DNA from: Eledone cirrhosa
Lineage: Eukaryota
NCBI GenBank assembly: GCA_964016885.1
Contig: OZ024749.1
Coordinates: forward strand, 21,018,001-21,082,000
Direction of reading: 5' to 3'
Length of the DNA stretch: 64,000 bases
The position numbers were made by a program, and so were the translations under genes. Under the pieces are notes generated by a model. That model did no database searches. It saw nothing but the letters and a program-made list of their open reading frames with translations, and was not told where the DNA came from. Positions within the stretch are counted from its first letter, which is position 1. Each line of letters opens with the position of its first letter. Below are positions 5,926-64,000 of the stretch, one piece after another.

Positions 5926-7049
<1,124 letters not shown>

Positions 7050-8071: not shown

Positions 8072-9296
8072 TTAATTGTAAGTTGTGATGTTGCTGTTCC
8101 ACTCATATTTTCTATTTAATTTTGGTTTTAATTCTTTTATGCTTACTGCCTCTGTAATTTGCCTAAACATTGCGTCTTTCTTGTGTGTGGATTCTATTTT
8201 TATTTCTATGCTCTCTAATTTACCCCTGTGTTCTATCTTAGCATGTTGGTAGAGCACAGATGATTCTTTACTATCTTGGAGGTCTCGCCAGTGTTCATTT
8301 ATTCGTTCCCCTATACTACGAGCTGTCTCACCTATGTACACTACATTTTTGTTTCTACATTGTCCTTCAGTACATCTTATGCTATATACCACATTTCTAG
8401 TTTTACAGTTAATATGGGGGCTTATTTTACAGGTTATACATTTCTTATCTATACATGAGGGTCTTTGGAACGGGTATGTCTTGCTAATAAGTGTTTTTAC
8501 GGAGGTACCAGGTCTTTCTACTATCTTAATATTGAGATTATGTTTCTTTAGGGCCCTTCTAAATTTGTAGGCTAGTTCGCCTCTAGGGGTTGTATTGATG
8601 AACATTACACTCTGGTATTTATTGCTATCATACCATGAGTTTATTCTATTGGCCTTGTTCTTAGTTCTTTCTATTCTATTCCAAAATTTGCTCCTATACA
8701 AGGGGCAGGTCCCATTTATGTCATTATTTACCATTTTTTCCCATTTGGTTCTGGCTCCTTTATACACTCTGATTCTATCTCTCTGATTGTAGCCAGAGAA
8801 CTGCATACGGTGGATGAAGTGTTGTATGTGTCTCTCTAGTTCTTCGGGGTTGCACATGCGGGACACATTTCTCATCACCCGTACCAAATCCGCAATCAGT
8901 ATGTTGATTTTGGTATGGTCCGAAATGGCCGAGTTTCGGTGGATCAGATGTTTGGAAGTCATGGGTTTGGCATAATGGGAATGGAGGATTTGTTTTTGGT
9001 TGTTAATAGTATCTAACCAGAGCTCTGTGTCTAGTACAGGTAATCGATGGTTGGGGTGTCTACTTGGGTAGTCTATAGTAACTCTAATGCTCTGGTGGAT
9101 GGAGTTTGCTATTTGCTGGATGCTTTCCATTGTGTTTTTCTCTAGTTCCTGACTGTTCTTTAGTGGGGGTGTCTTAACTACGATGTTTATATCATCTACG
9201 TAGCGGGAGTACATTATCAGGGTTAAGCTGTCTTCTAATTGTTCATTAAGTTTTTGTTTAAGTCTACTGTCCCACCATACCATGAATAAGTTAGCT
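8072..9296 (-). CDS. PLE polyprotein C-terminal half: RT (YVDD), CxxxxCxxC linker, GIY-YIG endonuclease
   Basis: RYVDDI, LPVLD, CIDKKCITC, NVVYSIRC...YIGET.RS..ER..EH, terminal KPKLN. The first ~60 aa of ORF 8072..9475 are read-through from the inverted pLTR. Confidence 0.9.
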
Positions 9297-9394
9297 ATGT
9301 GGCGCATGCGCAAACTGAGCACGCAACCCACACACAAACAAAATGGCGTAGGATAGAAGAAAGGAAAGGCACAGAAACGAAGAAAGAAATCCCC

Positions 9395-9439
9395 AGTCAC
9401 TGAAGAGGTCACAGAGTGTGTGACGAAAGAACTATGACT
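9395..9439 (+). ncRNA. Minimal type I hammerhead ribozyme in inverted pLTR
   Basis: Stem I agtca/tgact; CTGAAGA; stem II gtcac/gtgac; GAAA; CUA triplet. Confidence 0.78.
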
Positions 9440-9590
9440 ATATATATATAAACAACTATCTGGTTGTGGAACCAACCAACCAACCAGAAATTTATAAATT
9501 TGTAAATTTATAAATATTTAATAAACTAAATTGAAGTGGAAGCAACTGGTGCGTGTGTTTCTTATTGGCAACATGACCCTCCCAAAGTAT

Positions 9591-16685: not shown

Positions 16686-19600
16686 CTAACAGTGCTGCGA
16701 TCGAATGTGGCTTTTTAGCCCAGCCAATGATCTAAAATGTCTTGCACAGAGTCGGCAACCAAAACATTCACTGGGAATAGTCGGCTGTGGTTGGAGTACG
16801 TGTACTTTTGCATGTCGCTTGAGCCCTCCTGCTGATTTACATTCTCTACCACATGTTTGGCAAGCATGATGAGTAGCATCTCCAACAACAGCCTGGTAGT
16901 CAACCACTGGTCTTACTTTATGACTGCGAAGATGACTTTCGAGTCCAGCTTTGCTTAGGCAGAGTCTCGCACAGACGCTGCATGTCAGAACCATAGGAGG
17001 ACCCTCGCCGTCTGGAAGTGCAACAGCAATGCCCTTCCTCACGTCCTGCTTTACTTTCTTGTGTGCGATTCGAGATGCCTCAAAGGCAACTTTTCCCTCA
17101 TATACAGTCTTTCTCCACTTATTACGATCAGCAGCAATATTTTCCCATGTATCAGCAGAGATGTTGGCGTCTTTCAGAGAGGCTTTCAAGGAATCCTTAT
17201 ACCTCTTTTTTGGTTTATGTGGCGGTCGTTTTCCTTTAACCAACTCTCCATAGAAGAGTTGTTTTGGTATTCTAGAATCCTTCATCCTGGCAAGGTGACC
17301 TCTCCAACGGAGTCGTTGCTTAAGCACAAGAGCTTCTATACTGTCACACATAGAGCTTTCCAAAATCTCGACATCACTGATGTGGTCCCTCCAGTGAACG
17401 CCATGGATCCGTCTGAGACACATCTGATGGAAACGCTCCAATTGCTTAAGGTGGCGTCGATATGTGACCCAGGTCTCGCAGGCATAAAGAAGACAAGAGA
17501 GTACACATGCCCTGTACACCTTTACCTTTGTCCTCCTGCATATGTCTCGCTGACCCCAGAGTCGCCTTTCTAGCTTTCCGAAAGCATCACTTGCTTTCCT
17601 AATCCTAAGTGAGATTTCACCGTCAAGGTTGCCGTATCGATTGACAGTGCTTCCCAGGTAGACAAACTGATCAACCACTCCGAGTCGTTTGCCATACACA
17701 TAGATGTTTGGTTCAGTGTACTGCTTACTAGGGGCAGGTTGGTACATGACGACGGTTTTCTTGAGACTGACAGCCAAACCCAGGGCAGTGCAAGCGTCAG
17801 AAAATACATTCAAAATGTGCTGCATATCACTCTCTGTGTGCGCTACAAGATCGCAATCATCTGCATACAAGAGGTCTCTTATGACTGATGTAAATACTTT
17901 TGTCTTCGCAGCAAAGCGCCTGATGTTAAATATGCTGCCTGAGGTTCGATATCGGATGTAAACACCATGCTCGCAATTCCTGAATGCAATACAGAAAACC
18001 ATTGCAAAGTATATGGCAAACAGGGTCGGTGCTGGAATATCCCCCTGTTTCACTCCATTTTTTACTGAGATAGGCTCCGACATTAACCCAAGCCTTCATG
18101 TCGTCATGGAAAGACCTAACTAAAGCAAGGAACTTATCAGGGCAACCAAGTTTCTGGGGAACCTTCCATAATGCATCTCTGTTGACAGTATCGAAAGCCT
18201 TTGTCAGATCGACAAAAACCTGATACAGATCCAAGCCCTGTTCAATGCACTTCTCCTGGAGCTGTCTAGCTGAGAAGATCATATCAGCAGTGCCGCGTCC
18301 AGCACGAAAACCAGATTGACTTTCAGGAAGGACACAATCTGCAATGTGTGTCAGCAGACGGTCCAGAAGCACCCTACATAAAACTTTCCCTACGACAGAA
18401 AGCAATGATATACCTCTGTAGTTCCCACAATCATTCCTGTTACCCTTTCCCTTGTACAAGACCACCATTACTGCATCTCTCCAGTCCTCAGGCACGGATT
18501 CATTAGCCCATATCCCTCCAAACAGAGAGTGAAGATGTTGCAGGAGTCTCTCACCACCATATTGTAGGAGCTCAGCATGTATGCCATCCATACCTGGAGA
18601 TCTTCCACTGTTCAGCTTCGAAATAGCCACTGCAACCTCCACAAGCGTCGGAGGTTCTGCGAGAGCTACTTTCACAGGACTTTCCGGAATGAGATTGAGG
18701 AAATCTTCACTGACGACAGACGGATTCAAAAGATCATCAAAGTGCTCTCGCCACCTTCGTAGAATTCCCTGTGAGTCACGAAGAAGTTCTTTGCCATCCT
18801 TGCTGCGAATCGGTGTCACCAGAGAAGAAGACGGTCCATAAACCTCACGCAAGAGACTGTACAACAGCTTTGTGTTATTGCAATCAGACGCAGTTTGTAT
18901 CTCACCAGCCTTCTCACTCCACCACTGATCCTTCATCTGAGAAAGACTCCGCCTAACACGTGATTTTACATCCCTGAGCCCCTCATGCAACGTATTCCTC
19001 TCCTGTGGTTTTGCCGTCAAGTAGCGTGACAGAGCACGCCTCTTATCAGCCAACAAGTCTTCTATATGTACATCATTCTCATTAAACCAGTCCTGATGTT
19101 TTCTCTGCACCAATCCCAGAACACGTCTGCCTACATCATAAACCGACTTTTTAAGGGTCGGCCAATCCTCACCAAGATCTGCAGCCTGCATCTCTTCTTC
19201 CAATGTCCTCTTCACATTTTTATCCTTAAGACGAGCAGCATTCAATCTTTTGGGCAGGGCAACACCAGGAGCCCGGATTTTACGTTTGGTGATTAGATTC
19301 ACTTTTGCGCGTACCAGGCGGTGGTCCGTCCAGCATTCAGCTCCACGAAGAACACGAACACACTGCACATCCTGTCTGTCACGCATCCTGACTAGGACGT
19401 AGTCCAAAAGATGCCATTCCTTAGATGCAGGATGCATCCATGTGGTCTTGAATTTGTTCTTTTGTTGGAACATGGTGTTGGTAACACACAGATCCAGCTC
19501 CTCACACATCTGCAGCAAGAGCATACCATTGCTGTTACACTTTCCCACCCCATGCCTTCCGATTACATTCCATGTCACCAAGCACGATGACTTTGTCTGC

Positions 19601-20182
19601 CTGAGGGATATTTCTTAGAACACCTTTCAAGGCATGGTAAAAGGACAGTTTTTCTTCATCGACAGAATTCATAGTTGGAGCATACACACTCACCAGGGTA
19701 GCATATCTTCCCTTGTCCAGCGGAACTCTCATGGACATAAGACGCTCACTAATCCCTACTGGGAATTCTTCTAATTTATTCACCAGTACAGTCTTAACAG
19801 CAAATCCTACCCCAGCCTCTCTTCTGGTTCCTTCATCTCTTCCTTTCCAGAAGAATGTATATTCTCCACAAAATTCCGTAAGATGACCATCTCCAGCTAA
19901 CCTCGTCTCAGATAAAGCCACGATGTCAAGATCGTAACGTCGAAGCTCCTTTGCAACAAGAGCGGTCCTTCGTTCAGGACGCTCCAAAGAATCCCTGTCA
20001 AGCAGCGTCCGTACGTTCCAGCAGCCAAGACTAAATGCCCTGTTTGGCTCTATTACAATGGCACGATGACGGGCGGGCCCAGGTTGTGATAACTTGGGGC
20101 CCCTGCCCTTATTGCCAATGATCTTTTTGGTTCCAGAACCCAAATTGGCAATTATCTCGTTTACATTGTTCTGGAACATCAT
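16686..20182 (-). pseudogene. RTE ORF (APE-RT-C2H2 x3) with two frameshifts (~19580, ~18075)
   Basis: WNVRT, ALSETR, YAPT, DHRLV, YRGISLL, QSGFR, FVDLTKAFD, GVKQGD, LYADD; C-terminal CSVC..H, CQTC..H, CRLC..H fingers. Confidence 0.93.
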
Positions 20183-20494
20183 TGAATTGGAAAAAAAAAA
20201 AAAAAAGTAATAATAATAGTAATAATAATAATAATAATAATGATTTCATTTATTGGCCACAAGGGCCGACATATAGGGGACAACACAATAGACAGGGACA
20301 GTGGGGGTTTACATAGAGATCGAGTAAGTATAAATAACAAAAAAACAAAATAACAATAAAAATACAACAATGAAAGTTCCCCAATAAGAGGGATCACCAC
20401 CCAGGGTTGACTCAAGCACCCCACCAGTCCTGAGCCACCCGACGCTCCTAGGGCACCCGGGAAGGGCACCCCTCTCCTTCTCGAATTCACCAGC

Positions 20495-23400
20495 CTACAG
20501 GCGCATGATCAGAGTAGGCCCACTCACGCGGGCCATTCTCGCCACATTCACCCACCTTTCAGTAAATGTACTGGGGGGCAGCACTTCTCTCTCCACCCTC
20601 ACCTTCCTTTCCAAGTGAAACTTGAAGAAGTTGATGAGGGATTGGCCGAAGAGAAAAGTGTCTGTCTTCAGTCCTTTCAACCTGGTCCACCATGCAACCT
20701 CTTTCGCTACTGCCACCAGGCAGAGGAAAATTGCCTGCCCTTCCTGACCAAAAGAAGGCGGCGGGTCAATCTTCACTATGGACTCGGACGATAGCCGGAT
20801 CCGTTCTACACGCGACAATAGCTGTTCGACATAACCCCACAAGTCAGCAATGCACGGACACTGGACGAGTGCGTGCAGAACGGTTTCGTCGCTCTGCGCG
20901 CATCTCGGGCAGGTTCGTCTGACAGCACTTCCGTGCCTGTAGAGTTTATCCCGAACCGGCAGCGCCCCCCGGTAGCACTGCCAAGCGAGGGATTTCTGGA
21001 AGTTATCCATCGTCCCCGGCTCGAAAGTCCTCCGGAACATACTGGTCAGTTCTACTTCGTTGACGCCCAGAGCCTCTCCTAGTACGTCATCGCACTTGCC
21101 CTCCACTAATCCTCTATAGAAATCTTGAGTGGAAGTTCCACTGACCGCATTGCCCACCTTGCAGAGTGCAGTGAGCGCCTGGCAACATTCCAGATGCCAG
21201 TCGCCCAGTCTCGGTCTCTTCTTGACCCAGGACTGCAGCTCAGTCAAAGAGATGAGCTGCGGAAAGGCCCGTCTAACAAACGGCGACCACACCTGTTCAC
21301 CGTTTAGGCAAAATATCTGGAGATGTCGCAGCCTCAGCGCATGTCTGCGCATCATTAGCCACGGCATGCCCAGCCCTCCACGAAGAGGGTGCTGGCAGCA
21401 GATGGACCGCCTCACCAACGGGACCCGTCCCCTCCACAAAAATTTGAAAAGGAGCCGTTCTAAATTGGCGAGGCGTGGACGGGGGCAAGGCACGACGGTC
21501 AGGCGGTAGTAGATGACGGACGCGATGTACGCGTTCGCCACCTCCGCCCGCCCTTTCAGTGATAGCTTTCTCTCAGCCCATTTCTGGGTGAGGTTGGCTA
21601 TCCTGCTCGTCACCTCGTCCCAATTCTTATCCACCTGGAGGTCTGGTCCGAACCAAACCCCGAGCAACTTTACCGGTCCGTCTGTCCAGCGCCCAACGAC
21701 GCTGTTGGACGGCATGGACTTGCCTCTCCAGGTGCCGAGCTGCAAGCCCACCGACTTTTCCGGGTTAAGTTTTGCTCCCGTCAACCTTTCATATTCCTCC
21801 AAATGGGTGCGGATCACCTCGATTTCCGAGGTGTCCGACACCATCACGGTGATGTCGTCCGCATAAGCGGACGCAGCCTTTCTACGTCCCGGTTCGAGCG
21901 GGATGCCCTGCAACAACTCCAGCTTCCGCAGTAGAGGCTCAAGAGTCAATACGTACAGAAGTGAGGAGAGAGGGCACCCTTGACGGACCGATCGAGAGAT
22001 CTGAAACGGTTCCGAGAGGTGGCCATTAACTTTGACCACCGAGCGGATGCCGCTGTACATTGCAGCGATCCAGCTTCTGAAGACGGGGCCGAAGCCAGCC
22101 GCCTCGAGGACAGCCTCCAAGTACCGATGGTCGACCCTATCGAATGCTTTCGATTGATCTAAATTGATCAGAGCCCCACCGAAGCCAGGTTTGCACCCAA
22201 CCCTCTCTATGATGTATCGCATGAGGTGGAGGTTGTCGTGTATGGACCTGGTCGGGATTGCGCAAGTTTGCGCCTCCCCAACCAAATCTTTGACGACAAG
22301 CGCCAACCTTTTCGCTAACACCTTGGCCAAAATCTTAAACTCTGTGTTGAGCAGGGTTATGGGCCTGAAATTATCTAGTGTGTCCCTCTTGTTCTCGTCT
22401 TTCCTTATCAGCGTCACTACGCCACGGCTCACAGAACTGGGAATGCTCCCGTTCTGCTGCCAGTTGCAGTAGAGCGCTTCGAGGAGATCGGAGAACAAGT
22501 CTGGCATATTTACGTAAAGCTCGTAGGGCAGACCATCCAAACCGGGTGACTTGCGACTCGAGCAGCCGACAAGGGCGTCCTGAATTTCGGCTGATGTTAT
22601 CGGCTCTTCGCAGCGCTCAGCGTCGGCCGTCGAGAGGCGTGGCAAGCCGTCGAGGTAGGGACTGAAGTCCGCCGCCGTCTCCGACTCACCCATCCTCCCG
22701 AACAATCGAGCAAAGTGCTGGCGAAAGGCCTCACACATCTGCTTGGAATCGCTCAGTTCGTGTCCATCTCGATCCGTCAAAGACCGAATTGTGGTTTTAT
22801 TTCCACGCTGCGTCTCTGCAAAGCGAGCCCATCGGGCAGCTTTGGTTCCCTCGTTCCTCAGAGCACGCGCCTTAGCTCTGACAATGCAACCTTCGTGTTT
22901 CGCATTGAAGAAATGGTCTAGTGCCATTCTCGCCGCTAGCACGTCTGTTGCAATGCCACTACAAATAGCCTCGTCTAACTTAGCTATCAGCCCCTCCTCC
23001 TTTCTATTTTTCTCTATTGCTACTTCTTTGCTAAATCCTATCGAGGTTGCTCTAATCTCTCTTTTGAGTGCCCCCCACCACCTGTTGTTGACAACCCCCC
23101 CTGTCAACTTTTGCTTAACTAAGTTGTTGACCCGGTCCCTGTAAGCTTTACGTGCCGGAAACGACATGTTTAGCTTCCAGTAGCTAGGTCCTAACCTACG
23201 TGTCTTATCTAGGTCGACCATACAGATCACAAGCTTGTGATCTGAATAGGCAACCGTTTTAAAATGTGGACATCCTACACTATTTCTATCTCTTTTCCTA
23301 ATGAAAATCCTATCTATGTACGATCTAGATGACCCTATGCGATTGGTCCAGGTCCATACTGGCGCATTAGGGAAATCTAGTCGGTACCTGTCAGACAGTT

Positions 23401-23914
23401 GAAACTGGCTGATCAGGTACTTGAGGCTTTTGCACCCCCCGCTCCTATCAGATACTCCCACACAATCCCAGCGTGCTTCTAAGATGCCATTCCAATCCCC
23501 TATTAACAGTAAAGGGCGAGACGTAAGCAGAAAGTTTTCCAGGCGCCTAAAGAAGTCCGGCCGACCGGCCCCAGTAGGGGCGTAGACGGCCACCAGTCTA
23601 AAGGCACCACCTTCGCTATTGCTCACGTCCAGGACCACCAACTTTCCGTCAGGATCCCGGAAGATTGACCTTACCTCGAGATCCAGACATTTCCTAAACA
23701 GCACAGCCACTCCACCTCCCATTCCCGGCCGACTAACAGATGCAAAGATCTGATAATCGTCGAAAATCGGCGCCAGTGCGCGTGTGTCGGAAATTCTGGT
23801 CTCGCTGATGGCAATTACATCCATTCCTAGTGACCTGAGGTCGTTGAGCAAGTGACCTTGCTTCCAGGGCGACCCCAGGCCACGAACATTTAAACTTCCT
23901 ACTCTTATGGCCAT
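20495..23914 (-). CDS. Tx1/L1 ORF2 (APE endonuclease, RT, C-terminal Zn finger), intact 1139 aa
   Basis: LNVRGL, ISET, YAPT, GDWN, SDH; FRPITLLN, DQSKAFDRV, QGCPLS, AYADD; CPRC...ETVLHALVQC. Confidence 0.96.
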   Translation of the reverse strand: MAIRVGSLNVRGLGSPWKQGHLLNDLRSLGMDVIAISETRISDTRALAPIFDDYQIFASVSRPGMGGGVAVLFRKCLDLEVRSIFRDPDGKLVVLDVSNSEGGAFRLVAVYAPTGAGRPDFFRRLENFLLTSRPLLLIGDWNGILEARWDCVGVSDRSGGCKSLKYLISQFQLSDRYRLDFPNAPVWTWTNRIGSSRSYIDRIFIRKRDRNSVGCPHFKTVAYSDHKLVICMVDLDKTRRLGPSYWKLNMSFPARKAYRDRVNNLVKQKLTGGVVNNRWWGALKREIRATSIGFSKEVAIEKNRKEEGLIAKLDEAICSGIATDVLAARMALDHFFNAKHEGCIVRAKARALRNEGTKAARWARFAETQRGNKTTIRSLTDRDGHELSDSKQMCEAFRQHFARLFGRMGESETAADFSPYLDGLPRLSTADAERCEEPITSAEIQDALVGCSSRKSPGLDGLPYELYVNMPDLFSDLLEALYCNWQQNGSIPSSVSRGVVTLIRKDENKRDTLDNFRPITLLNTEFKILAKVLAKRLALVVKDLVGEAQTCAIPTRSIHDNLHLMRYIIERVGCKPGFGGALINLDQSKAFDRVDHRYLEAVLEAAGFGPVFRSWIAAMYSGIRSVVKVNGHLSEPFQISRSVRQGCPLSSLLYVLTLEPLLRKLELLQGIPLEPGRRKAASAYADDITVMVSDTSEIEVIRTHLEEYERLTGAKLNPEKSVGLQLGTWRGKSMPSNSVVGRWTDGPVKLLGVWFGPDLQVDKNWDEVTSRIANLTQKWAERKLSLKGRAEVANAYIASVIYYRLTVVPCPRPRLANLERLLFKFLWRGRVPLVRRSICCQHPLRGGLGMPWLMMRRHALRLRHLQIFCLNGEQVWSPFVRRAFPQLISLTELQSWVKKRPRLGDWHLECCQALTALCKVGNAVSGTSTQDFYRGLVEGKCDDVLGEALGVNEVELTSMFRRTFEPGTMDNFQKSLAWQCYRGALPVRDKLYRHGSAVRRTCPRCAQSDETVLHALVQCPCIADLWGYVEQLLSRVERIRLSSESIVKIDPPPSFGQEGQAIFLCLVAVAKEVAWWTRLKGLKTDTFLFGQSLINFFKFHLERKVRVEREVLPPSTFTERWVNVARMARVSGPTLIMRL

Positions 23915-23943
23915 GCTGGCAGGATGAATGGGAGAGGAAAGGT

Positions 23944-25853
23944 TTACTTACCTTCCGGGGTCTTGTGAAGGTCGGGTGGTTCGACCTCCATGGTTTGTGG
24001 GGTTTCTTTTGGGAACCCCTTTAATAGTCTTGACGTGGGTTTTACGTTCGGGGTTCCCACATCCCGAGGAAAGCTCTTTCGAATTTCTTTGTATGAAGCG
24101 AGCGACATTCGCATCAGAAGCAAATTATCTGGTACGCGAAATGTGCTCGCTTCAAATGTTTCCCCGTCTTTTTCGATGTTTGTGCTTCGTGCTACATGGG
24201 CCATCAATTCCTTGTTGGCCCTTCTGGCAAGCACGAAGTTTTTAATGTTTTGTTGCTCGGGTTTTATTTGTTCGTGTGATTGTGGTGGTGATAGCTTTGT
24301 TAGTGTTGTTTCTATTGTGTCTGCGTTTGTTGTGGGTGGGGTGTCTGTAGTTTCTGATGTTTGTGTGTCTATTTGTTCTTGTGTCTGTTTAGCTTGTTTG
24401 CGTTTGGGGGATTTTGGTGGTTGTGTTGGTGATGCTGTGGGGAAAATGTTTGTGTGGGTGGTGTGTGTATTTTTTTTTGTGGGGGTGTTTGTGCTTTGTG
24501 GATTTCTTTTTTTTTGTGTTTTGTTTTTTGTATTTTGGGGGACTTTGGTTTTCCCTCATCTTCACTGCTGGAGGATGAGGGGTCTGTGGCTGTGAGCGTG
24601 TTTGTGTCTGAGTGAGTGTTTATGTTCTTGTTCGTGTGTGTATTTTTGAGGGGAGGGGGAATGGGAGAGCTTTCCTCGTTTCCCCCCTGGGTGTGCAATT
24701 TTGGTGGTTCCATTGTTGACGGTGTTGCTGGTGGTCCTTGTCCCGGCGTCGCCAGCAGTGGAATCTTTCGACCCCTTGCGCTTTTCGGCAGTTGAGGGCA
24801 GAAGGCTCGCAAGTGTGTCGTTTCCCCACAAAGGAAACAATGCGGCCTTTTGCCCTCAGTCATTATATGCAACACCCTCCCGTTTTGGAGGCGGATGTGG
24901 TCCGGGATTGTTTTTACGTTTTCGGGTCTGATTTGGAGCAGTATCTCCAGATCAACCCCGGACCAGTCGTCCCTGGCAGTTCTCGTTGCCTCTACCGGGA
25001 CTGTATCCGTTCCTTCCACGATTACGCAACCCAGGAGCCACCACATATCAAGTCCTGGTGGAATCCTGGGAATGCGCACACGTGCTATTCGTTTTCCCAT
25101 GTGGGAGGGGTACATTATGACCTTGCTGGTTTTGCAAGGGGTCATTGAATGCTTCACAGCGAGGGCTTCAGACTTGAACAGCACCGAAACGGTGCCGTAT
25201 TGCCTGCCCCTCTCTATGAAGTCTGTGTCCTCTCTGATGTATTTCAGTGCGGCTTCTATGTCAGCTTGGGCGATTATCGCTGCCCTCTTTGTCTCTACTG
25301 AGATGCATCTGAAATGCACCGTTCTTTTTTCCACTGCCTCAATGGCTTCTGCCGGGACAGTTAAGTTTGCCCAGGTCTGCTCTTGATTTATGATTTTCCA
25401 GGCCTGGGCCAACTTTTCCTCTCTGTTGGTTAAGTCGATGCTGTAGCATGGTCTCCTTTTAGCCGCTGCCACAGCAGCGAAAGTGTTCTTGTTGGTGTTG
25501 TCACTGTTGTTGTTCTTGTTGGTGTTGCTGCTGCTATTGCTGTTGTTGTTCTCCCCTGTGTCGTGGTTACCTTCTGTGCTGTTGGCCTTGTTGGTGCTGC
25601 TGCTGTCGCTACTATTACTCTCTGTGCTGTTCGTTTTGTTGGTGCTCTCGTTATTACCACCTTCTGCGCTGTTCGGCTTGTTGGTGTTGGTGTTGTCGCT
25701 GTTACCACCTTCCGCGCCGCTCGGCCCGTTGGTGCTGGCACTGTCGCTGCTCACATTCGTGCTGGTGGCGCTCCTCGCCTCACCTCTCCTCTCAACGCTC
25801 AAGTCGCCGTTGCACGACAGCAGACCCGCCTCTAGGGGGCGTGGCTCCGCCAT
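23944..25853 (-). CDS. Tx1 ORF1 (N/S/T-rich N-terminus, CCHC zinc knuckle), split by a frameshift near the poly-T runs at ~24470-24530
   Basis: CFLCGETTHLRAFC knuckle; C-terminal piece 23944-24234 (DVGTPNVKPTSRLLK) aligns with ORF1 of the 61-63 kb copy (DVGNSCVKPLNRVLLK). Confidence 0.85.
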
Positions 25854-26534
25854 GTTTTTTTGAGAAAAAAATTATTATTTTTTTTTTTTTCAAAATAAAG
25901 TTCAAATATTTGGGCCAAAAGGCCCAAATATTATGAGTTATTCCTTCACAGGATACAAATTAATGTCTTATAATGCTTCAGCGGTACAAAAAATAAACAA
26001 TTCTCTACAATTAATCCTCAAAAATTGCTTACTCACGGAGCTTCAAAAAACGTACATCCACTTTCGTCAATAATAATAATAATAATAATAATAGTACACT
26101 ATTAATAATTATTAATGCACTCGTGCAATGCCTGTGCGTGACGAATATTTTTAAAGTGAGGAAAGACTGTGCACTGAGCCAATCCCACTCTCTGAGCGAC
26201 AGTAGCTATAACCCGAAAAGAAGAAAAGATCAACATCATCGGTAACTACTGAGCCGCAGGTTTTATATCGGAGTTAACCCAGTTTCCTGAGATGCCTTCT
26301 CCTAGAAGAATACCCTGACAAGGGCTAGGGGTTCTTCACTCCCAGTGGTTTAACTGCGCGATCGGGCATCCAGCCCGATTATTTCTGTCCCCGCGCGCAA
26401 AAAAAAAAAAAAAAAAAAATCACTTATTGACACTTATACGTACGACATACACACACACGCATACATATGCGCGCACACAGCAACACTCATACATACAACA
26501 AACACACACACACGCTACTCTACTCACTTACACG

Positions 26535-57184: not shown

Positions 57185-57600
57185 CACATTTAACTATGCC
57201 AAATAGACCACATATCTGTCTGTATAGTGGTTATGGTGAAAGAAGTTATATGGTGGACGAGATTGAGCGGCCTGAGGACAGATGCCTTTCTCTCCGGACA
57301 ACAACTCATTCCCTTCTTTAGGTACCACTTTAGAAGGAGAATCAGAGTGGAGAGAGAGGCACTGCACCCCAGTAAATTTACTGAAAGGTGGGCGAATGTG
57401 GCAAAAATGGCCCGAGTGATTGGGCCTTCTCTGTATATTAAACCTGTAGGTTGAAGAAGAGAGCAAAAGGAAGAAAGGAGCACTTGCACAACACGCTCTT
57501 GAAGTTGAGGGTTGTTCTATCTATGGGGTATTAAACAACCAATTTGTAACGCCTCCCCTCTATTGGGGATTTTGTTTGTTTAAATTTATCTATCTATCAA
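57185..57600 (+). pseudogene. Tx1 ORF2 3' fragment plus UTR, (TCTA)n tail
   Basis: KEVIWWTRL...ERWANVAKMARV homologous to the ORF2 C-terminus. Confidence 0.85.
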
Positions 57601-57680: not shown

Positions 57681-58625
57681 CTGTCAGTGGAGAATCCACC
57701 TCGTCATTCTATAGAGGGCTGGTGGTTAGCAGGTGCGACGACGCCCTCGGAGAAGCCCTAGGCATGGAGGAAGACGGACTGGCCAACCTGTTCGGTAGGA
57801 CATTCAGCCCGGGACCCATGGATAACTTCCAGAGGTCCCTGGCCTGGCAGTGCTACCGAGAGGCTCTGCCCGTTCGAGAAAGGCTCTACAGACACGGGCG
57901 CCCGGGTAGGGACCCCTCGAAAAAGATCTGTCCCAGATGCGTGTGCGACGAGGAAACCGTTGTACACGCATTGGTACACTGCTTGGGCATTGCCGATCTG
58001 TGGGGCTATGTCGAACAACTGCTATCAAGGGTGGGACCGATCCGGTTGACCACCGAGTCTATTGTAACGATCAAGCCGCCTCCCCTCTTCAACAACGAAG
58101 GAGAGGCGGTGTTTCTGTGCATAATAGCCATGGTGAAAGAGGTTGTATGGTGGACGCGTCTGAAAGGACTGAGGTCAGACACCTTTCTCTCTGGCCAACA
58201 ACTGGTCCGTTTCTTCCGATATCATTTCGGAAGAAGGATCAGGATGGAGAGAGAGGTGCTGCACCCCAACCGTTTTTATGAAAGATGGGTGAAAGTGGCG
58301 AGAATGGCCCGTGTGAATGGGCCTTCACTCTACATCAGACTATAGGTGAGGAAGATGAAAGATCAAGGGAGCACCCCCTCTCTGTGCTCCTAAGGAGAAG
58401 GGTTGCACACTTTTTTTCGAGGGTGTGTGCGACCCCCAAGGCGCCTCCTCCCTATTAAGGATTTTGTTATTAAATTTATTTTTGTTATATTTTATTTTAT
58501 TTTTATATTTTGTTATTGCCTCCTCCTTATTGAGGACGCCTTTTTATGTAAACTCCCCCCATTGTACTTGTCCCACTTTTTGATGCCCTGGTGGCAAATA
58601 AAAAGAAAGTTATCTATCTATCTAT
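57681..58625 (+). pseudogene. Tx1 ORF2 3' fragment plus 3'UTR, (TCTA)n tail
   Basis: FQRSLAWQCYREALPVR...CPRC...HALVHC; stop at 58345; AATAAA. Confidence 0.9.
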
Positions 58626-59099: not shown

Positions 59100-60950
59100 C
59101 TCTGGGATGGACACACGCGTGTAGCTTGCTGAGTAAGTTCTGTTTAAATTTCTATAGAAATTCTTGACTGTAAACTTTAATTTTTGTACCATTTTGTAGA
59201 GGGACTGCCAGGTCAAATTTTGATCTGGTCAGTCTCTCAAAATATTCTACGCCTTTAGGCGAAATAGTTAACAAAAAGTTTTTTTTTTGAAAAGTTAACA
59301 TTTTTTAAAAATGGCTGAAGCTTCTTCACCAAAATTCGAAGGAGGAAAGGGGAAGATAAGCTTACAGCTTCCCCCTGTCACTGTCACAGTAGCAGAGGTC
59401 AAAGACAAAGGTCAGCCAGAGGAAGGATTTTCTCCACCTGCTGACCGACAACTTGACGTTGCCATGGCAACAAACCAAACAACCAGCGGCACCAGCAACA
59501 ACGACAACAACAACAATGCTACGGACGAAAACAACAACAATAACAATAACAATAACAACAAGACCAATAACTGTGATAACAACAACAATGATAACAACAA
59601 CACCACCAACTACAACAGCAACACAAACAAGGAAAAGGTCTCCTTCGCCCAGACAGCAAGGAAAACCCTCGACTATCTGCCAGTAGACATAACCAAAGCG
59701 AAGGAGCTACTGGCAGATGCCAAAAAATACATAATGTACGGGGAAAATGGTGCATTTTCGATCCACTCCCCACCGGAACTAAAAAGCCAGAGACTCCTAA
59801 ACACTGTCATGTTTAGGACAATCTCAAACAAAAGCAAAAAACCAGCTCAACCATCACAGAGTGAGATAGAGCTGGTTTTAAAAGACGTCATGAAAGACAT
59901 CACATTCATTCAGAAGGATAGACTCTACGGGAGTCTATCCATTCTCATGAAGGACAGGGACACAGCAGTGAAACTGTCCATAAAACCAATTACATCCACC
60001 GCATAAACCTTCTACCCTACGTACATGGGTAGAAGGACACAAAAAATAAAAATCCACACCATCCTGCCGATTATGGACATATGGTGGGTTTTGACAGGTT
60101 TCCTGAACCTGGATGATGACACGCTGGTGTCCATGGGAAAGGCATCGGGTGACGCGTTCAGTGGAACGAGCCTCGAATTTGTAGTTCAAATGAGGCCCGA
60201 AAGGATTGCCCAGATCCCTGAACGCGTCATACTGGATGATCAAACTTTCATCAACATTACCGTTGAGGGTAGGCGGTCCTCGTGTTACCTCTGTGGAACC
60301 AGAGGTCACCTGAGGGCTGTCTGTCCCCAACTTAAGAAAACCCCAATCCTGCCGACACCACCAACAACTGCACAACCAACACAATCACCACAACCACCAC
60401 TACAAAAACAACAACCACAGCTCAAACCAAAACAAAACAATGTCCAACCCCCCCCCCCACTCAGAAAAAAAACAATTTCCAAAACACCCGCACCGCAAAT
60501 ACAACCCGAAAATCTACCCCTCCCCTCCAACGCGGAAGATGACCCTCGTTCGTCGTCAGATGAGGAGGAGCACTTCCACATAATCAAAAGAAAAAAAGAA
60601 AACACACCTCAGACACACAAATGAAAACAACCCCTCCCCAAAACATAACACTGACACCAACACAAAAGAGCACACAACACCAAACAAAAAACACCACACA
60701 AAAACAAAAACATGCATACACATACATAAACGCAAGAAATAAAAAAACTGTTAAACATTGTGTACAACTACAATTTGATAAAAACCCAAGGGCCTAACTT
60801 CACCCAGGCAGGGGATTTCCCCCACCTCAAAATGATTAAGGCCCCAGAGGACACATATAAAACACTAAAACACAACTTTAAAGAGGACGTGCCCCCCCAT
60901 GCGTCGGGCCCATTAACCGCGTCCTCCTAAAAAACTATCCCACCCCCTCC
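59100..60950 (+). pseudogene. Tx1 5'UTR plus ORF1 with internal stops, 3'-truncated
   Basis: Asn-rich N-terminus; CYLCGTRGHLRAVC knuckle; stops at 60006 and 60624. Confidence 0.85.
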
Positions 60951-61159: not shown

Positions 61160-61161
<2 letters not shown>

Positions 61162-63330
61162 GCAGTGTGTAACTTCTCGGAGAAGTTTCCGTTAATTTAT
61201 GTAAGAAAAAAACGTGAGTTTCCAGTTAAATTTTATATTATTGTGTAACTTGACCCCCCCCCCGTCTGGACCTTTAGGTGGTGGGTCAACTCATTTCGCC
61301 CCTACAGGGTCGAAATATCCGTTTGAAAAATTTTTTCTCCATCGAATCTTGGAAAAAATATTTAAAAAGTTTGATTACGTTATGAACGCTGCGTCCAACG
61401 ATAATGGTGGTGGAGAGGCGGTAAGACTACAAAGCTCGCAGTCAACATCGTCTTCTTGACTAGATACTATAAAGATGGAAAGACGAAATGAAAATGCAAA
61501 AACAAATTCATATCCAAACAATACAAATGACACCAAACAGTTCAATGACAACAAAAATAACAGCAACACCAATAATGATGATAAAAAACAACAATGATAA
61601 TAACAACAAAGAAAAAAATAAAGACAACACCAATAACACCAGCATCAAAGACAACAACAACACCAAGGAAAATACGAATAATATCAACATCGGTGACAAC
61701 AAGAATAACAACAACAATAACAACAATAATGACAACACCACCAACACGGATAATTCCACAAAGGAACCAAAATCTCCTTTGCAGAGACAGTTCAATAAAA
61801 GGAGGAACTGATATATCTCGACATAAAAAATGCTGAACAACTTTTAAAGGACGCTAGGAGATATGTCACTTTCGAAAAAAATGGTGCTTTCAGCATCAAT
61901 TCTCCGGTAGAAATTCGCAAGGAAACTGCTCTCAAAACGATAGTTTTTAGGACAGTTTCCAATTCTACCCGAAAACCAGTCCAATTGTCACAGAAAGAAA
62001 TTGAACTGGTTTTCAAAAATTCAATGAATGATATTGCATTCATTCAAAGAAGCAAACTTTTTGGGAGTATTTCGGTACTCATGAAGGATCAATTGACGGC
62101 CCAAAATTACTCTGTGTCGCCAATTGTATCCAACCTGTACACCTTTTTCCCTACATACATGGGAAAAAGGACACAAAAGATCAAAATCACGAGTGTCACA
62201 CCAAAGGTGAACATATGGTGGATACTGTGCGGCTTCATCAATTTTGATGAAGACAGAATACTGTCAGTAGGAAAGTCCCCCAGAGATGTATTCAATGGGA
62301 CTAGCATTGAAGTTCTGGTGCAAATGAGCCCAGAGCGAATAGCTATGATCCCACAACGTGTACTCCTGGACGGACTCACCTACATAAACTTTTCGGTTGA
62401 GGGTAGGCGGCCTTCACGTTACCATTGCTTTAGCAGAGGTCACCTGAGGGCTTCCTGTCCTAAATTAATGAATCAAAAGAAGGCTCTTCTGCCGACACCC
62501 ATCAAAACAACACAGCCACCAACACCACCACCACAACAACAACAACACCAACACACAAAAATAACCACAACAAACACAGTCCCACCCAACCCCACTCCAC
62601 CTAAAACCACTGCAAAATCACATACAGACACAACAGCTCCCCAAGACATACCCCTCCCCAATCACACAGACGATACAACAGATGAGGCTATCTCACCATC
62701 ACCCAGTGAAGACGAGGGAGAACCCCATCGCTCGAAAAGAAAGAAAAGACATCACAAAAGCAAAAATCCAGCAAACACTACCACAAACATACAACCACCA
62801 ACACAAACAACAAAAATATCACAAACAAAACCCCCACCTCCTGAAAACAAAATACCTACAACAAGACGAAAGCACACACAAGAACTACAGACAAAAACAA
62901 ACACAACACAAGAAAATTACACTTACACTTACATAAACACTGAAAACAAAACACTAATGGAGACGATCACGAACGACCCTTCGGTTTGCACCGAAAGGAA
63001 AACTTTCGCCCACTCTATTAAAAATAGCAAAAAACTGAACCTAAAACTGATTAGGGTCCCTATACAAACTTATAGGTCCCTAAAAGAAACATTTGAGAAG
63101 GATGTGGGGAATTCCTGCGTGAAACCACTCAACCGCGTCCTTCTCAAATGTCTCCCCACCCCAGACACCCCCATCCCACCAGACCCACCCCACCAAACAT
63201 CTCCGTCCCCACCCCGCCGGAAACCACCACCCATCCAGACAACCCCTCCAACACCCCCATGGAAATCGTGCGGCCTGGTCCCCAGGAGACGAAGGGTGAG
63301 CGATCTCTTTTCCTTTTTTAACTTTTCAGT
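61160..63330 (+). pseudogene. Tx1 5'UTR plus ORF1 (disrupted)
   Basis: ATG at 61382; Asn-rich tract; degenerate knuckle RYHCFSRGHLRASC; homologous to the other ORF1 copies; follows (TC)n. Confidence 0.85.
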
Positions 63331-63336
63331 ACCAAC

Positions 63337-64000
63337 ATGGCCAATATAAGAGTTGGATGTGTGAACGTACGCGGCCTGGGGATGCCCTGGAAACAGGGCA
63401 AACTCTTAAACGACCTCAGGTCGCACAGTATGGATGTGGTAGCCATTTGCGAGTCCAGGATCCACAGCAAGCGACAGCTGGCCCCCATCTTCGATGACTT
63501 TGAGATCTACGCATCTCTCTGTCAACCGGGGGGTGGGGGCGGAGTTGCCGTTTTGCTGCGGAAACACCTGGGCCTCGTAACACAGACGGTACATCTGGAC
63601 CCGGAGGGTCGACTGGTGGTCCTAGACGTTGACGGTAGTGAAGGTGGAGCCTTCAGGCTGGTGGCCGCATATGCCCCATCCGGGACACCGCGGCCAGACT
63701 TCTTCAAACGTCTAGAGACTTTTCTGGGAACGTCCCGCTCCTTGCTTTTAGTGGGGGACTGGAATGGAATCCTAGATGCACGTTGGGACTATGTGGGAAC
63801 ATGTCCCGATAAAGGGGGGTGTAACAGCCTCAAACAGTTAATCGACCGATTTGACCTGGCCGATAGATATCGACTAGATTTTTCGACTGCGCCACTGTGG
63901 GCGTGGAGTAATCGTAGCGGAACATCTAGATCGTACCTAGATAGGGTTCTAGTTAGAAATAAGGATAGGGACATGTTAAGCTGTCCACAAATGTTCATGG
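63337..64000 (+). CDS. Tx1 ORF2 N-terminal APE endonuclease, runs off the window end
   Basis: MANIRVGCVNVRGLG..WKQG.LLNDLRS...YAP...GDWNGILD...SYLDR; collinear with the ORF2 at 23914; absent from the ORF track because it has no stop in the window. Confidence 0.92.
   Translation, partial: MANIRVGCVNVRGLGMPWKQGKLLNDLRSHSMDVVAICESRIHSKRQLAPIFDDFEIYASLCQPGGGGGVAVLLRKHLGLVTQTVHLDPEGRLVVLDVDGSEGGAFRLVAAYAPSGTPRPDFFKRLETFLGTSRSLLLVGDWNGILDARWDYVGTCPDKGGCNSLKQLIDRFDLADRYRLDFSTAPLWAWSNRSGTSRSYLDRVLVRNKDRDMLSCPQMFM

What the first reader, a model, noticed from the sequence alone, without database searches (positions are those of the whole stretch)
20490..26068. Tx1 LINEs carry splice-consensus sites bracketing both ORFs: candidate splicing-based ORF1/ORF2 expression switch
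Seen in copy 1 (-): GAAG|GTAAGT at the ORF1 end (GT at 23951), then a pyrimidine-rich tract and CAG|C-ATG one base before the ORF2 start (23916). The divergent copy 3 (+) has AAGG|GTGAGC (63296), a polypyrimidine tract, then TTTTCAG|TACCAAC-ATG (63329). Each 5'UTR has a donor consensus within ~30-60 nt of the 5' end: GTGAGTAAG at 26036, GAGTAAGT at 59131, GTAAGA/GTGAGT at 61201/61214. All three ORF2 ends read YTRTAG|G (20495, 57449, 58345). Inference: the 34-36 nt inter-ORF segment is short for a metazoan intron, so the sites may pair crosswise. 5'UTR donor to pre-ATG acceptor would give an ORF2-only mRNA; ORF1-end donor to ORF2-stop acceptor would give an ORF1-only mRNA (copy 1 would end ...EGW*). 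If the micro-intron itself is spliced, the ORF1 stop moves just past the ORF2 ATG (AWP*; VPTWPI* in copy 3, assuming one upstream poly-C frameshift), a stop/start-coupling geometry. L1-clade ORF2 is normally thought to be translated from unspliced bicistronic RNA.
Basis: partly seen in the sequence, partly recalled or inferred. Interest (0 to 1): 0.78.

Follow-up and report, generated by a model that had tools for sequence, protein, structure and literature searches.

The report
Splice donor marks LINE ORF1 end
In a young family of microsatellite-targeting jumping genes, the best splice-donor-like motif of the element sits at the end of the first gene in most subfamilies and in a distant relative, and it likely lets the element make a short messenger for its packaging protein, but no spliced RNA was examined and no exactly spliced copy was found.

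Summary
The quoted motifs are all there. The elements are young L1-superfamily (Tx1-like) LINEs inserted in (ATT)n or (TATC)n arrays.

The ORF1-end donor is real and selected. It ranks first or second among 274-366 GTs in 6 of 6 elements, and 7 of 8 subfamily representatives keep it while flanks diverge. A 41%-identical outgroup has TAA G|GTAAGT one base after the ORF1 stop (54 of 54 units).

The pre-ATG AG is missing in 4 of 8 subfamilies, the outgroup spacer is only 7 nt, and the ORF2-end AG is the stop codon (TAA in group B). No exactly spliced retrocopy turned up among 342 + 547 copies, which argues against the micro-intron and ORF2-only forms.

The outgroup also has a donor after the ORF2 stop and a 3'UTR acceptor (45 of 45 units). 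Best reading: a U1 site, mostly unused in the template RNA, that likely sometimes splices ORF2 out to give an ORF1-only mRNA, as Copia elements do for Gag (0.42). A splicing-independent U1 role is close (0.30). No RNA reads were available.

The parts
20235..26068 (-). Copy 1: full-length LINE of subfamily A, between (ATT)n runs; unit about 5.84 kb
   Evidence: 342 copies share the 18-mer before the donor
26031..26036 (-). 5'UTR donor-like core GTGAGT at +33, followed by a U-rich tract; weak on its own
23944..25853 (-). ORF1 (one frameshift in this copy; 636 aa in intact copies), one CCHC-like knuckle, ends ...PEGK*
23946..23954 (-). ORF1-end 5' splice-site motif AAG|GTAAGT, overlapping the ORF1 stop; best-scoring donor of the element
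23915..23945 (-). Pyrimidine-rich inter-ORF spacer and start-codon context; the AG at 23917-23916 is not conserved across subfamilies
20495..23914 (-). ORF2, 1139 aa, APE endonuclease + RT + zf-RVT; its TAG stop (20497-20495) is the candidate terminal acceptor
20249..20254 (-). AATAAA just before the (ATT)n tail
57230..57590 (+). 5'-truncated 3' fragment of another subfamily (ORF2 stop 57447-57449); ends approximate
57690..58610 (+). 5'-truncated copy of another subfamily (ORF2 stop 58343-58345, TAG|GTGAGG); ends approximate
59100..60940 (+). Copy 2: 5'UTR (GTAAGT at 59133) and broken ORF1; breaks off before the ORF1 end; ends approximate
61161..64000 (+). Copy 3 (subfamily C, after a (CT)n/(TATC)n run): 5'UTR cores at 61201 and 61214, ORF1, junction, start of ORF2 (ATG 63337)
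   Evidence: 547 copies share the 21-mer before the donor
63293..63301 (+). ORF1-end donor motif of copy 3, AGG|GTGAGC (GTGAGT in intact relatives)

Best explanation
The GTRAGT motif at the ORF1 stop is conserved across these LINEs and is likely a true 5' splice site that is mostly left unused, so that the full-length RNA would serve as template and ORF2 message, while occasional splicing to an acceptor near the 3' end would remove ORF2 and give an ORF1-only mRNA. Shown: the motif, its rank, its conservation against flanks, its independence from the stop codon in the outgroup, the loss of the pre-ATG AG, and the absence of exactly spliced DNA copies. Inferred: U1 binding, actual splicing, and the partner acceptor (the 3'UTR acceptor in the outgroup and group B; possibly the ORF2 TAG|G in A, C and D). 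Also inferred: the purpose (excess ORF1 protein from a message with a short 3'UTR) and ORF2 translation by re-initiation on unspliced RNA. The pyrimidine tract is read as part of the donor (a U-rich enhancer or a weakly masking stem), not as a 3' splice-site tract.
For: Rank: first, tied first or second among all GTs in 6 of 6 elements.

Conservation: positions -1..+6 have mean pairwise identity 0.75-1.0 over 8 representatives, against 0.18-0.57 in flanks and 0.49-0.62 at ORF2 four-fold sites (the alignment is anchored on the motif). The ORF1 stop lies at +2 in B, D and G but at +6 in A and C, so one stop position does not explain it.

Out-of-sample confirmation: the outgroup at 41% ORF2 identity has TAA G|GTAAGT in 54 of 54 units, leaving ORF1 whole. 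It also has a GTRAGT donor 14 nt after the ORF2 stop in 45 of 45 units with variable exonic bases, and the unit's best acceptor about 235 nt further on in 45 of 45.

Partner acceptors: group B lacks AG at the ORF2 stop but has its first- or second-ranked acceptor in the 3'UTR. In A, most A2 copies, C, one four-G relative of C (L305) and D, a join to TAG|G meets a stop within 0-1 codon in the donor's phase.

Precedent: Arabidopsis EVD/Copia, where U1 both makes the Gag-only RNA and protects the full-length RNA (PMC5580714, passages).
Against: No RNA evidence was obtained.

No exactly spliced retrocopy from this donor among 342 A and 547 C copies (the probes cover about 89% and 56% of arbitrary acceptors), nor in the outgroup arrays (2 deletions, neither at these sites). 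This is weak against an RNA lacking ORF2 in cis, but it is not support. The one deletion starting at the donor (L167, 132 nt) is one base off an exact splice for its likelier parent (29 vs 7 diagnostic sites), and about one such deletion is expected by chance.

No single acceptor is homologous across families. The stop-in-phase pattern fails in G, F and one C variant (L173), and such stops are common in this purine-rich context.

In the outgroup's commonest 5'UTR type the donor is kept while the acceptor near ORF1 is lost. A sister family at 43% identity has only CCT|GTAATG at the ORF1 end. Only 3 of 11 distant loci (29-33% identity; one lineage) show GTRAGT near the ORF1 stop. The masking stem at the junction is mostly compositional (p 0.03-0.55).
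Confidence: 0.42

Rival explanations
1. The donors are U1 landing pads that are not spliced. One sits at the start of each non-coding segment (5'UTR, inter-ORF, and in the outgroup the 3'UTR), followed by a U/C-rich tract. U1 binding would support transcription of the full-length RNA, suppress cryptic poly(A) sites, or hold RNA in the nucleus.
For: Donors are kept while acceptors come and go. No spliced retrocopies, including 0 of 28 family-C 5'UTRs. AATAAA/ATTAAA hexamers lie 110-380 nt upstream of the ORF2 ATG in A, B and D. Splicing-independent U1 roles are documented (PMC5580714 passages; PMC9074902 abstract). [quoted passage not shown]
Against: The outgroup keeps a complete donor-acceptor pair in its 3'UTR (45 of 45) and intron-like 5'UTRs ending in Y-tract-AG in most types. 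One 5'UTR group buries its donor in a 13-bp stem (z -5.6), which makes more sense if the site can splice. Family C has no such hexamer near the donor.
Confidence: 0.3
2. The motif is not read by U1. It is a termination/re-initiation signal or a protein-binding loop around the ORF1 stop, and the AGs are by-products of the start-codon context and the TAG stop.
For: GTAAGT, GTGAGT and GTAGGT each contain a stop codon, and the ORF1 stop falls inside or at the edge of the motif in every own-genome family checked. L1 and SART1 ORF2 are translated by termination-reinitiation (PMC5972666, passages). No splicing trace in DNA.
Against: In the outgroup the stop lies before the motif, and the same motif recurs in the 5'UTR and after the ORF2 stop, where no ORF follows. 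The exonic bases also match the donor consensus (G at -1 in 8 of 8).
Confidence: 0.13
3. One reading: a 5'UTR donor joins the pre-ATG acceptor to make an ORF2-only mRNA, or the 34-36 nt micro-intron is removed to couple the ORF1 stop to the ORF2 start.
For: A, A2, C and E have Y-tract-AG before the ATG (scores 7.4-12.2). Human L1 makes a spliced ORF2-only RNA (PMC2896524, passages).
Against: No AG in B, B2, D, F, G and a 7-nt spacer in the outgroup. By my reading of the A2 junction, the frame after micro-intron removal differs from that in A and C. Zero retrocopies, whereas spliced copies are about 2% of full-length human L1 (PMC5860796, passages). No clustering of 5' ends just upstream of ORF2 among 107 copies traced.
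Confidence: 0.07
4. Neutral inheritance: an ancestral stop context happened to look like a donor and has simply not decayed.
For: The families share an ancestor. All four of A-D are identical at 95 of 308 four-fold sites, so a few bases can persist by chance. The motif was chosen after seeing it.
Against: By my estimate, keeping five such positions has a chance of about 0.003-0.03. The outgroup confirmed the prediction independently and has three such donors among its top four, all at the starts of non-coding segments.
Confidence: 0.08

Closest known systems
Tx1 clade of non-LTR retrotransposons, microsatellite-specific members Kibi (TC)n and Koshi (TTC)n (PMC4494074, passages)
   Same: Two ORFs; APE endonuclease-RT ORF2 closest to human L1 ORF2p among solved structures; CCHC-like ORF1; insertion into microsatellites.
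   Different: Targets here are (ATT)n and (TATC)n, with long head-to-tail arrays. No conserved splice donor at the ORF1 stop was found described in my paper searches (listings only).
Ty1/Copia subgenomic Gag splicing (Arabidopsis EVD; PMC5580714, passages)
   Same: A donor near the end of the structural-protein ORF; an unspliced genomic RNA and a proposed structural-protein-only mRNA; dual U1 role.
   Different: EVD is an LTR element with one ORF, a conserved intron and early termination shown by RNA data. Here there are two ORFs, no homologous acceptor, and splicing is not shown.
Human L1 splicing: SpORF2 (PMC2896524, passages) and SpIREs (PMC5860796, passages)
   Same: An L1-superfamily element carrying conserved splice-site motifs, including a donor near the 5' end.
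   Different: Human products start from a 5'UTR donor and leave retrocopies (131 of 6,609); that donor is explained by a RUNX3 site. Here the strongest donor is at the ORF1 stop and no retrocopies were found.
Termination-reinitiation in L1 and SART1 (PMC5972666, passages)
   Same: A short stop-to-start spacer (17-40 nt between the ORF1 stop and the ORF2 ATG in the families checked) suits ORF2 translation from unspliced RNA.
   Different: No overlapping UAAUG, and it does not account for a donor motif.

Membership tests
Tx1 clade (L1 superfamily) | ORF2 with N-terminal APE endonuclease and RT, L1-like | tested here: met
   Pfam Exo_endo_phos, RVT_1, zf-RVT; best PDB match human L1 ORF2p, E 1.7e-88, against R2 at 5e-33
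Tx1 clade (L1 superfamily) | Type I ORF1 with zinc knuckle/RRM rather than Transposase_22 | tested here: inconclusive
   An aligned CCHC pattern; zf-CCHC only below cut-off (E 0.015 and 0.24); no RRM or Transposase_22 match
Tx1 clade (L1 superfamily) | Target-sequence preference | tested here: met
   A and B copies lie in (ATT)n, C and D in (TATC)n-type runs
Tx1 clade (L1 superfamily) | RT phylogeny groups it with named Tx1 elements | not testable with these tools
Copia-like subgenomic splicing switch | Conserved donor at the end of the structural ORF | tested here: met
Copia-like subgenomic splicing switch | Conserved acceptor that pairs with it | tested here: inconclusive
   Present in the outgroup 3'UTR (45 of 45); not homologous across own-genome families
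Copia-like subgenomic splicing switch | Spliced structural-protein-only RNA detected | not tested
SpIRE-forming L1 splicing | Spliced retrocopies with exact GT-AG deletions in the genome | tested here: not met
   0 exact among 342 and 547 copies; 0 of 28 5'UTRs; 1 of 50 distinct deletions is GT/GC..AG-compatible and lies at no predicted site
Micro-intron between ORF1 and ORF2 | GT...AG pair conserved between the ORFs | tested here: not met
   AG in 4 of 8 representatives; 7-nt spacer without AG in 54 of 54 outgroup units

The most novel reading that the evidence does not exclude
This LINE lineage runs a retrovirus-like alternative 5' splice-site switch. Donors just after the ORF1 stop and just after the ORF2 stop compete for one 3'-terminal acceptor. 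That would give an ORF1-only mRNA and a bicistronic mRNA, while only the unspliced RNA is copied into DNA, which would explain why the introns are never lost from new copies.
Probability: 0.28. Interest if true: 0.8.

Novelty: new variant of a known kind. Interest (0 to 1): 0.55.

Why it matters
LINEs need far more ORF1 than ORF2 protein and are thought to get both from one unspliced RNA. A donor held at the ORF1 stop across 41% protein identity suggests that a non-LTR lineage reached the same solution as Copia elements, or uses U1 to protect its RNA. Hundreds of nearly identical, ORF2-intact copies make the question directly testable with existing transcriptome reads, using one sharply defined junction.

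Tried and rejected
RNA reads: none obtained, so splicing itself stays open.

Retrocopy probes: nothing exact. Subfamily D and the outgroup host genome were not probed genome-wide.

Near misses: L167 (132-nt deletion, would fuse ORF1 in frame to ORF2) was examined by tree and diagnostic sites and left ambiguous, more likely a microhomology deletion. The 23-nt deletion in L126 ends in TG, not AG.

Acceptor inside ORF2: of 120 AG columns kept in at least 4 of 5 families, the best follow Arg codons and are not distinctive.

Internal ORF2 promoter: no cluster of 5' ends upstream of the junction.

Donor-masking hairpin at the junction: predicted in 10 of 10 folds but not beyond composition (a coding-region control reached p 0.03).

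Empty searches: Rfam on four loci, viral contigs, ORF1 homologues, earlier scan findings.

One search's script stopped before scoring its last locus; that junction was read from the printed sequence. Splice scores use a weight matrix from recalled metazoan frequencies, not from this host. No supplements were read.
Full report
What the locus is. Copy 1 (20235-26068, minus strand) is a full-length LINE with a frameshifted ORF1 and an intact 1139-aa ORF2 carrying APE endonuclease, RT and zf-RVT domains. Its closest solved relative is human L1 ORF2p. The 3.0-Gb own genome holds at least 150 copies identical over the first 120 ORF2 residues, many in head-to-tail arrays with a period near 5,840 bp; 342 copies share the 18 bases before the ORF1-end donor. 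Copies sit in (ATT)n runs. Copy 3 belongs to a second family, C, with 547 copies by the same kind of count, in (TATC)n runs. 'Tx1' fits the domains and the targeting but was not tested by phylogeny.

Observation. Every quoted motif is at its coordinates, with the corrections given under the observation check. With a weight matrix from recalled frequencies, the ORF1-end donor is the best of 292 GTs in copy 1. It is best or tied best in B, B2, C and D, and second of 366 in the outgroup. The 5'UTR donors are weak one by one in the own genome (p 0.08-0.36), but a GTRAG core occurs in the first 100 nt of 6 of 6 elements.

Donor conserved, acceptors not. Neighbouring array units gave subfamilies that are 68-76% identical in ORF2 DNA between A, B, C and D, with ORF1 cores mostly about 30-35% identical (46% for C-D). 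Over 8 representatives, positions -1 to +6 have mean pairwise identity 0.75-1.0, flanks 0.18-0.57, and four-fold ORF2 sites 0.49-0.62 (anchored on the motif). Seven of 8 have GT; F is a single decayed copy with AT. The ORF1 stop lies at +2 in B, D and G and at +6 in A and C. An AG between donor and ATG exists in A, A2, C and E, and not in B, B2, D, F or G. In A it is one letter of the start-codon context (CCAGC versus the usual CCAAC). The ORF2-end 'acceptor' is Leu plus TAG, followed by a purine tract, and is TAA in group B.

Independent test. A scan of genome contigs returned 41 loci, most from one assembly that carries long tandem arrays of a LINE family 41% identical in ORF2, presumably animal DNA binned with a bacterium. 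Its ORF1 ends GAG TAA G|GTAAGT, then 7 nt without AG, then ATG, in 54 of 54 units matched by my anchor. Left out of that count are a 43%-identical family with only CCT|GTAATG and one decayed copy with ATAAGT. The donor is therefore separate from the stop, and a micro-intron is impossible. The same family has GTRAGT 14 nt after the ORF2 stop in 45 of 45 units, with five different exonic triplets. Its best acceptor lies about 235 nt downstream in 45 of 45 (39 by pattern, 6 variants). Its several unrelated 5'UTRs carry GTAAGT or GTAAGA followed by U-rich sequence, most ending in a Y-tract-AG. The commonest type has lost that AG, and one group buries the donor in a 13-bp stem. Among 11 more distant loci (29-33%), only three, of one lineage, show GTRAGT near the ORF1 stop, so this is a lineage trait and not general to the clade.

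Retrocopies. Probes that exclude the unspliced sequence found 0 and 2 hits among 342 A copies, both point variants. Among 547 C copies they found 6 hits: 5 unspliced variants and one 132-nt deletion. Probes for a 5'UTR donor joined to the pre-ATG AG found nothing (no denominators measured), and 0 of 28 family-C 5'UTRs were spliced. The deletion L167 ends at CACAG but starts one base late for a three-G parent. Its tree position lies between three-G and four-G subfamilies, with 29 versus 7 diagnostic sites favouring three-G. Deletions of 20 nt or more occur about once per 10 kb in C, so about one near the donor is expected; 1 of 50 distinct deletions was GT/GC..AG-compatible, at no predicted site. 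For forms that keep ORF2 in cis this absence is informative, given 131 of 6,609 spliced human L1s (PMC5860796, passages). For an ORF1-only RNA it is weak, by inference from L1 cis preference (recalled).

Mechanism. The donor lies where splicing would least disturb ORF1: one base after the stop in the outgroup, and over the last codons of a low-complexity tail in the own genome. The likeliest partner is 3'-terminal: the conserved 3'UTR acceptor in the outgroup, the top- or second-ranked 3'UTR acceptor in group B, and possibly TAG|G elsewhere. A join to TAG|G meets a stop within one codon in the right phase in A, most A2 copies, C, L305 and D, but not in G, F or L173; I count that as inconclusive. 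Arabidopsis EVD shows the same logic, with U1 both making a Gag-only RNA and protecting the full-length RNA (PMC5580714, passages). I give an occasionally spliced ORF1-only mRNA 0.42, a splicing-independent U1 role 0.30, a translation or protein-binding signal 0.13, neutral inheritance 0.08, and the ORF2-only or micro-intron forms 0.07. The pyrimidine tract is predicted to pair with the exon end in 10 of 10 folds, but this is mostly composition. A TIA-type enhancer role (PMC2964331, abstract) is a lead only.

What is known. Splicing of human L1, including an ORF2-only RNA, is published (PMC2896524, passages). ORF2 translation by re-initiation is reviewed in PMC5972666 (passages). Microsatellite-specific Tx1 families are known (PMC4494074, passages). 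Searches (listings and abstract starts) showed no report of a conserved donor at the ORF1 stop of a Tx1-type element; subscription papers and supplements were not covered. Also opened, as passages and without bearing on the claim: PMC11203168, PMC13282606, PMC4176376, PMC5203782.

Verdict. A real, selected feature of an ordinary kind of element. Splicing is not demonstrated. Interest 0.55.

Noticed in passing
L255-L294 (contigs of CAXXMW01), L295 (CAXXGD01): Bacterial genome bins in the genome collection contain tens of kb of tandem eukaryotic LINE arrays, likely host DNA mis-binned.
   Followed up: partly
G000 C1:423.36-423.42 Mb and many other sites: Head-to-tail arrays of up to about ten near-identical 5.84-kb units, plus mixed arrays of different subfamilies sharing one microsatellite target.
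   Followed up: partly
L167 / L171 (G000 C3:364829165): Family-C copy with a 132-nt deletion from the ORF1-end donor to CACAG in early ORF2, in frame with ORF2; exact splice only if the parent had four Gs.
   Followed up: yes
L260, L268, L280, L287 5'UTRs: A perfect 13-bp inverted repeat buries the 5'UTR donor GTAAGA (fold z -5.6 for L280).
   Followed up: partly
window 25850-26068 (-), 59100-59315, 61161-61380: 5'UTRs fold more stably than shuffles (z about -3 to -4; for C folded on relative L117), with tandem hairpins. The AG-like 'acceptors' in C, D and F 5'UTRs lie in a CCCT..AGGG hairpin.
   Followed up: partly
L054:6334: Subfamily E has a B-like ORF2 (94% DNA identity) behind a different ORF1 end and spacer, suggesting 5' module exchange.
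   Followed up: no
window 20249-20266 (-) and outgroup 3' ends: A GGCC..GTG..AATAAA motif closes the 3'UTR in own-genome families and in the 41%-identical outgroup; a candidate ORF2p recognition signal.
   Followed up: no
window 16686-20245 (-): A second, frameshifted endonuclease-RT element with C2H2-like fingers at its end (RTE-like from recall, not scanned) lies directly beyond copy 1's ATT tail.
   Followed up: no
window 8072-9517 (-) and 6025-6693 (-): A 481-aa ORF resembling a Penelope-type RT end with GIY-YIG motif, and an endonuclease fragment (both labels from recall, not scanned).
   Followed up: no
P0001: Outgroup-family ORF2 whose first half is unusually rich in Gly/Arg/Cys relative to its second half, as expected from A-to-G hypermutation.
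   Followed up: no
window 59100-60940: Copy 2 has a 5'UTR and ORF1 but breaks off into simple repeats shortly before the ORF1 end; its family's junction was not found.
   Followed up: no
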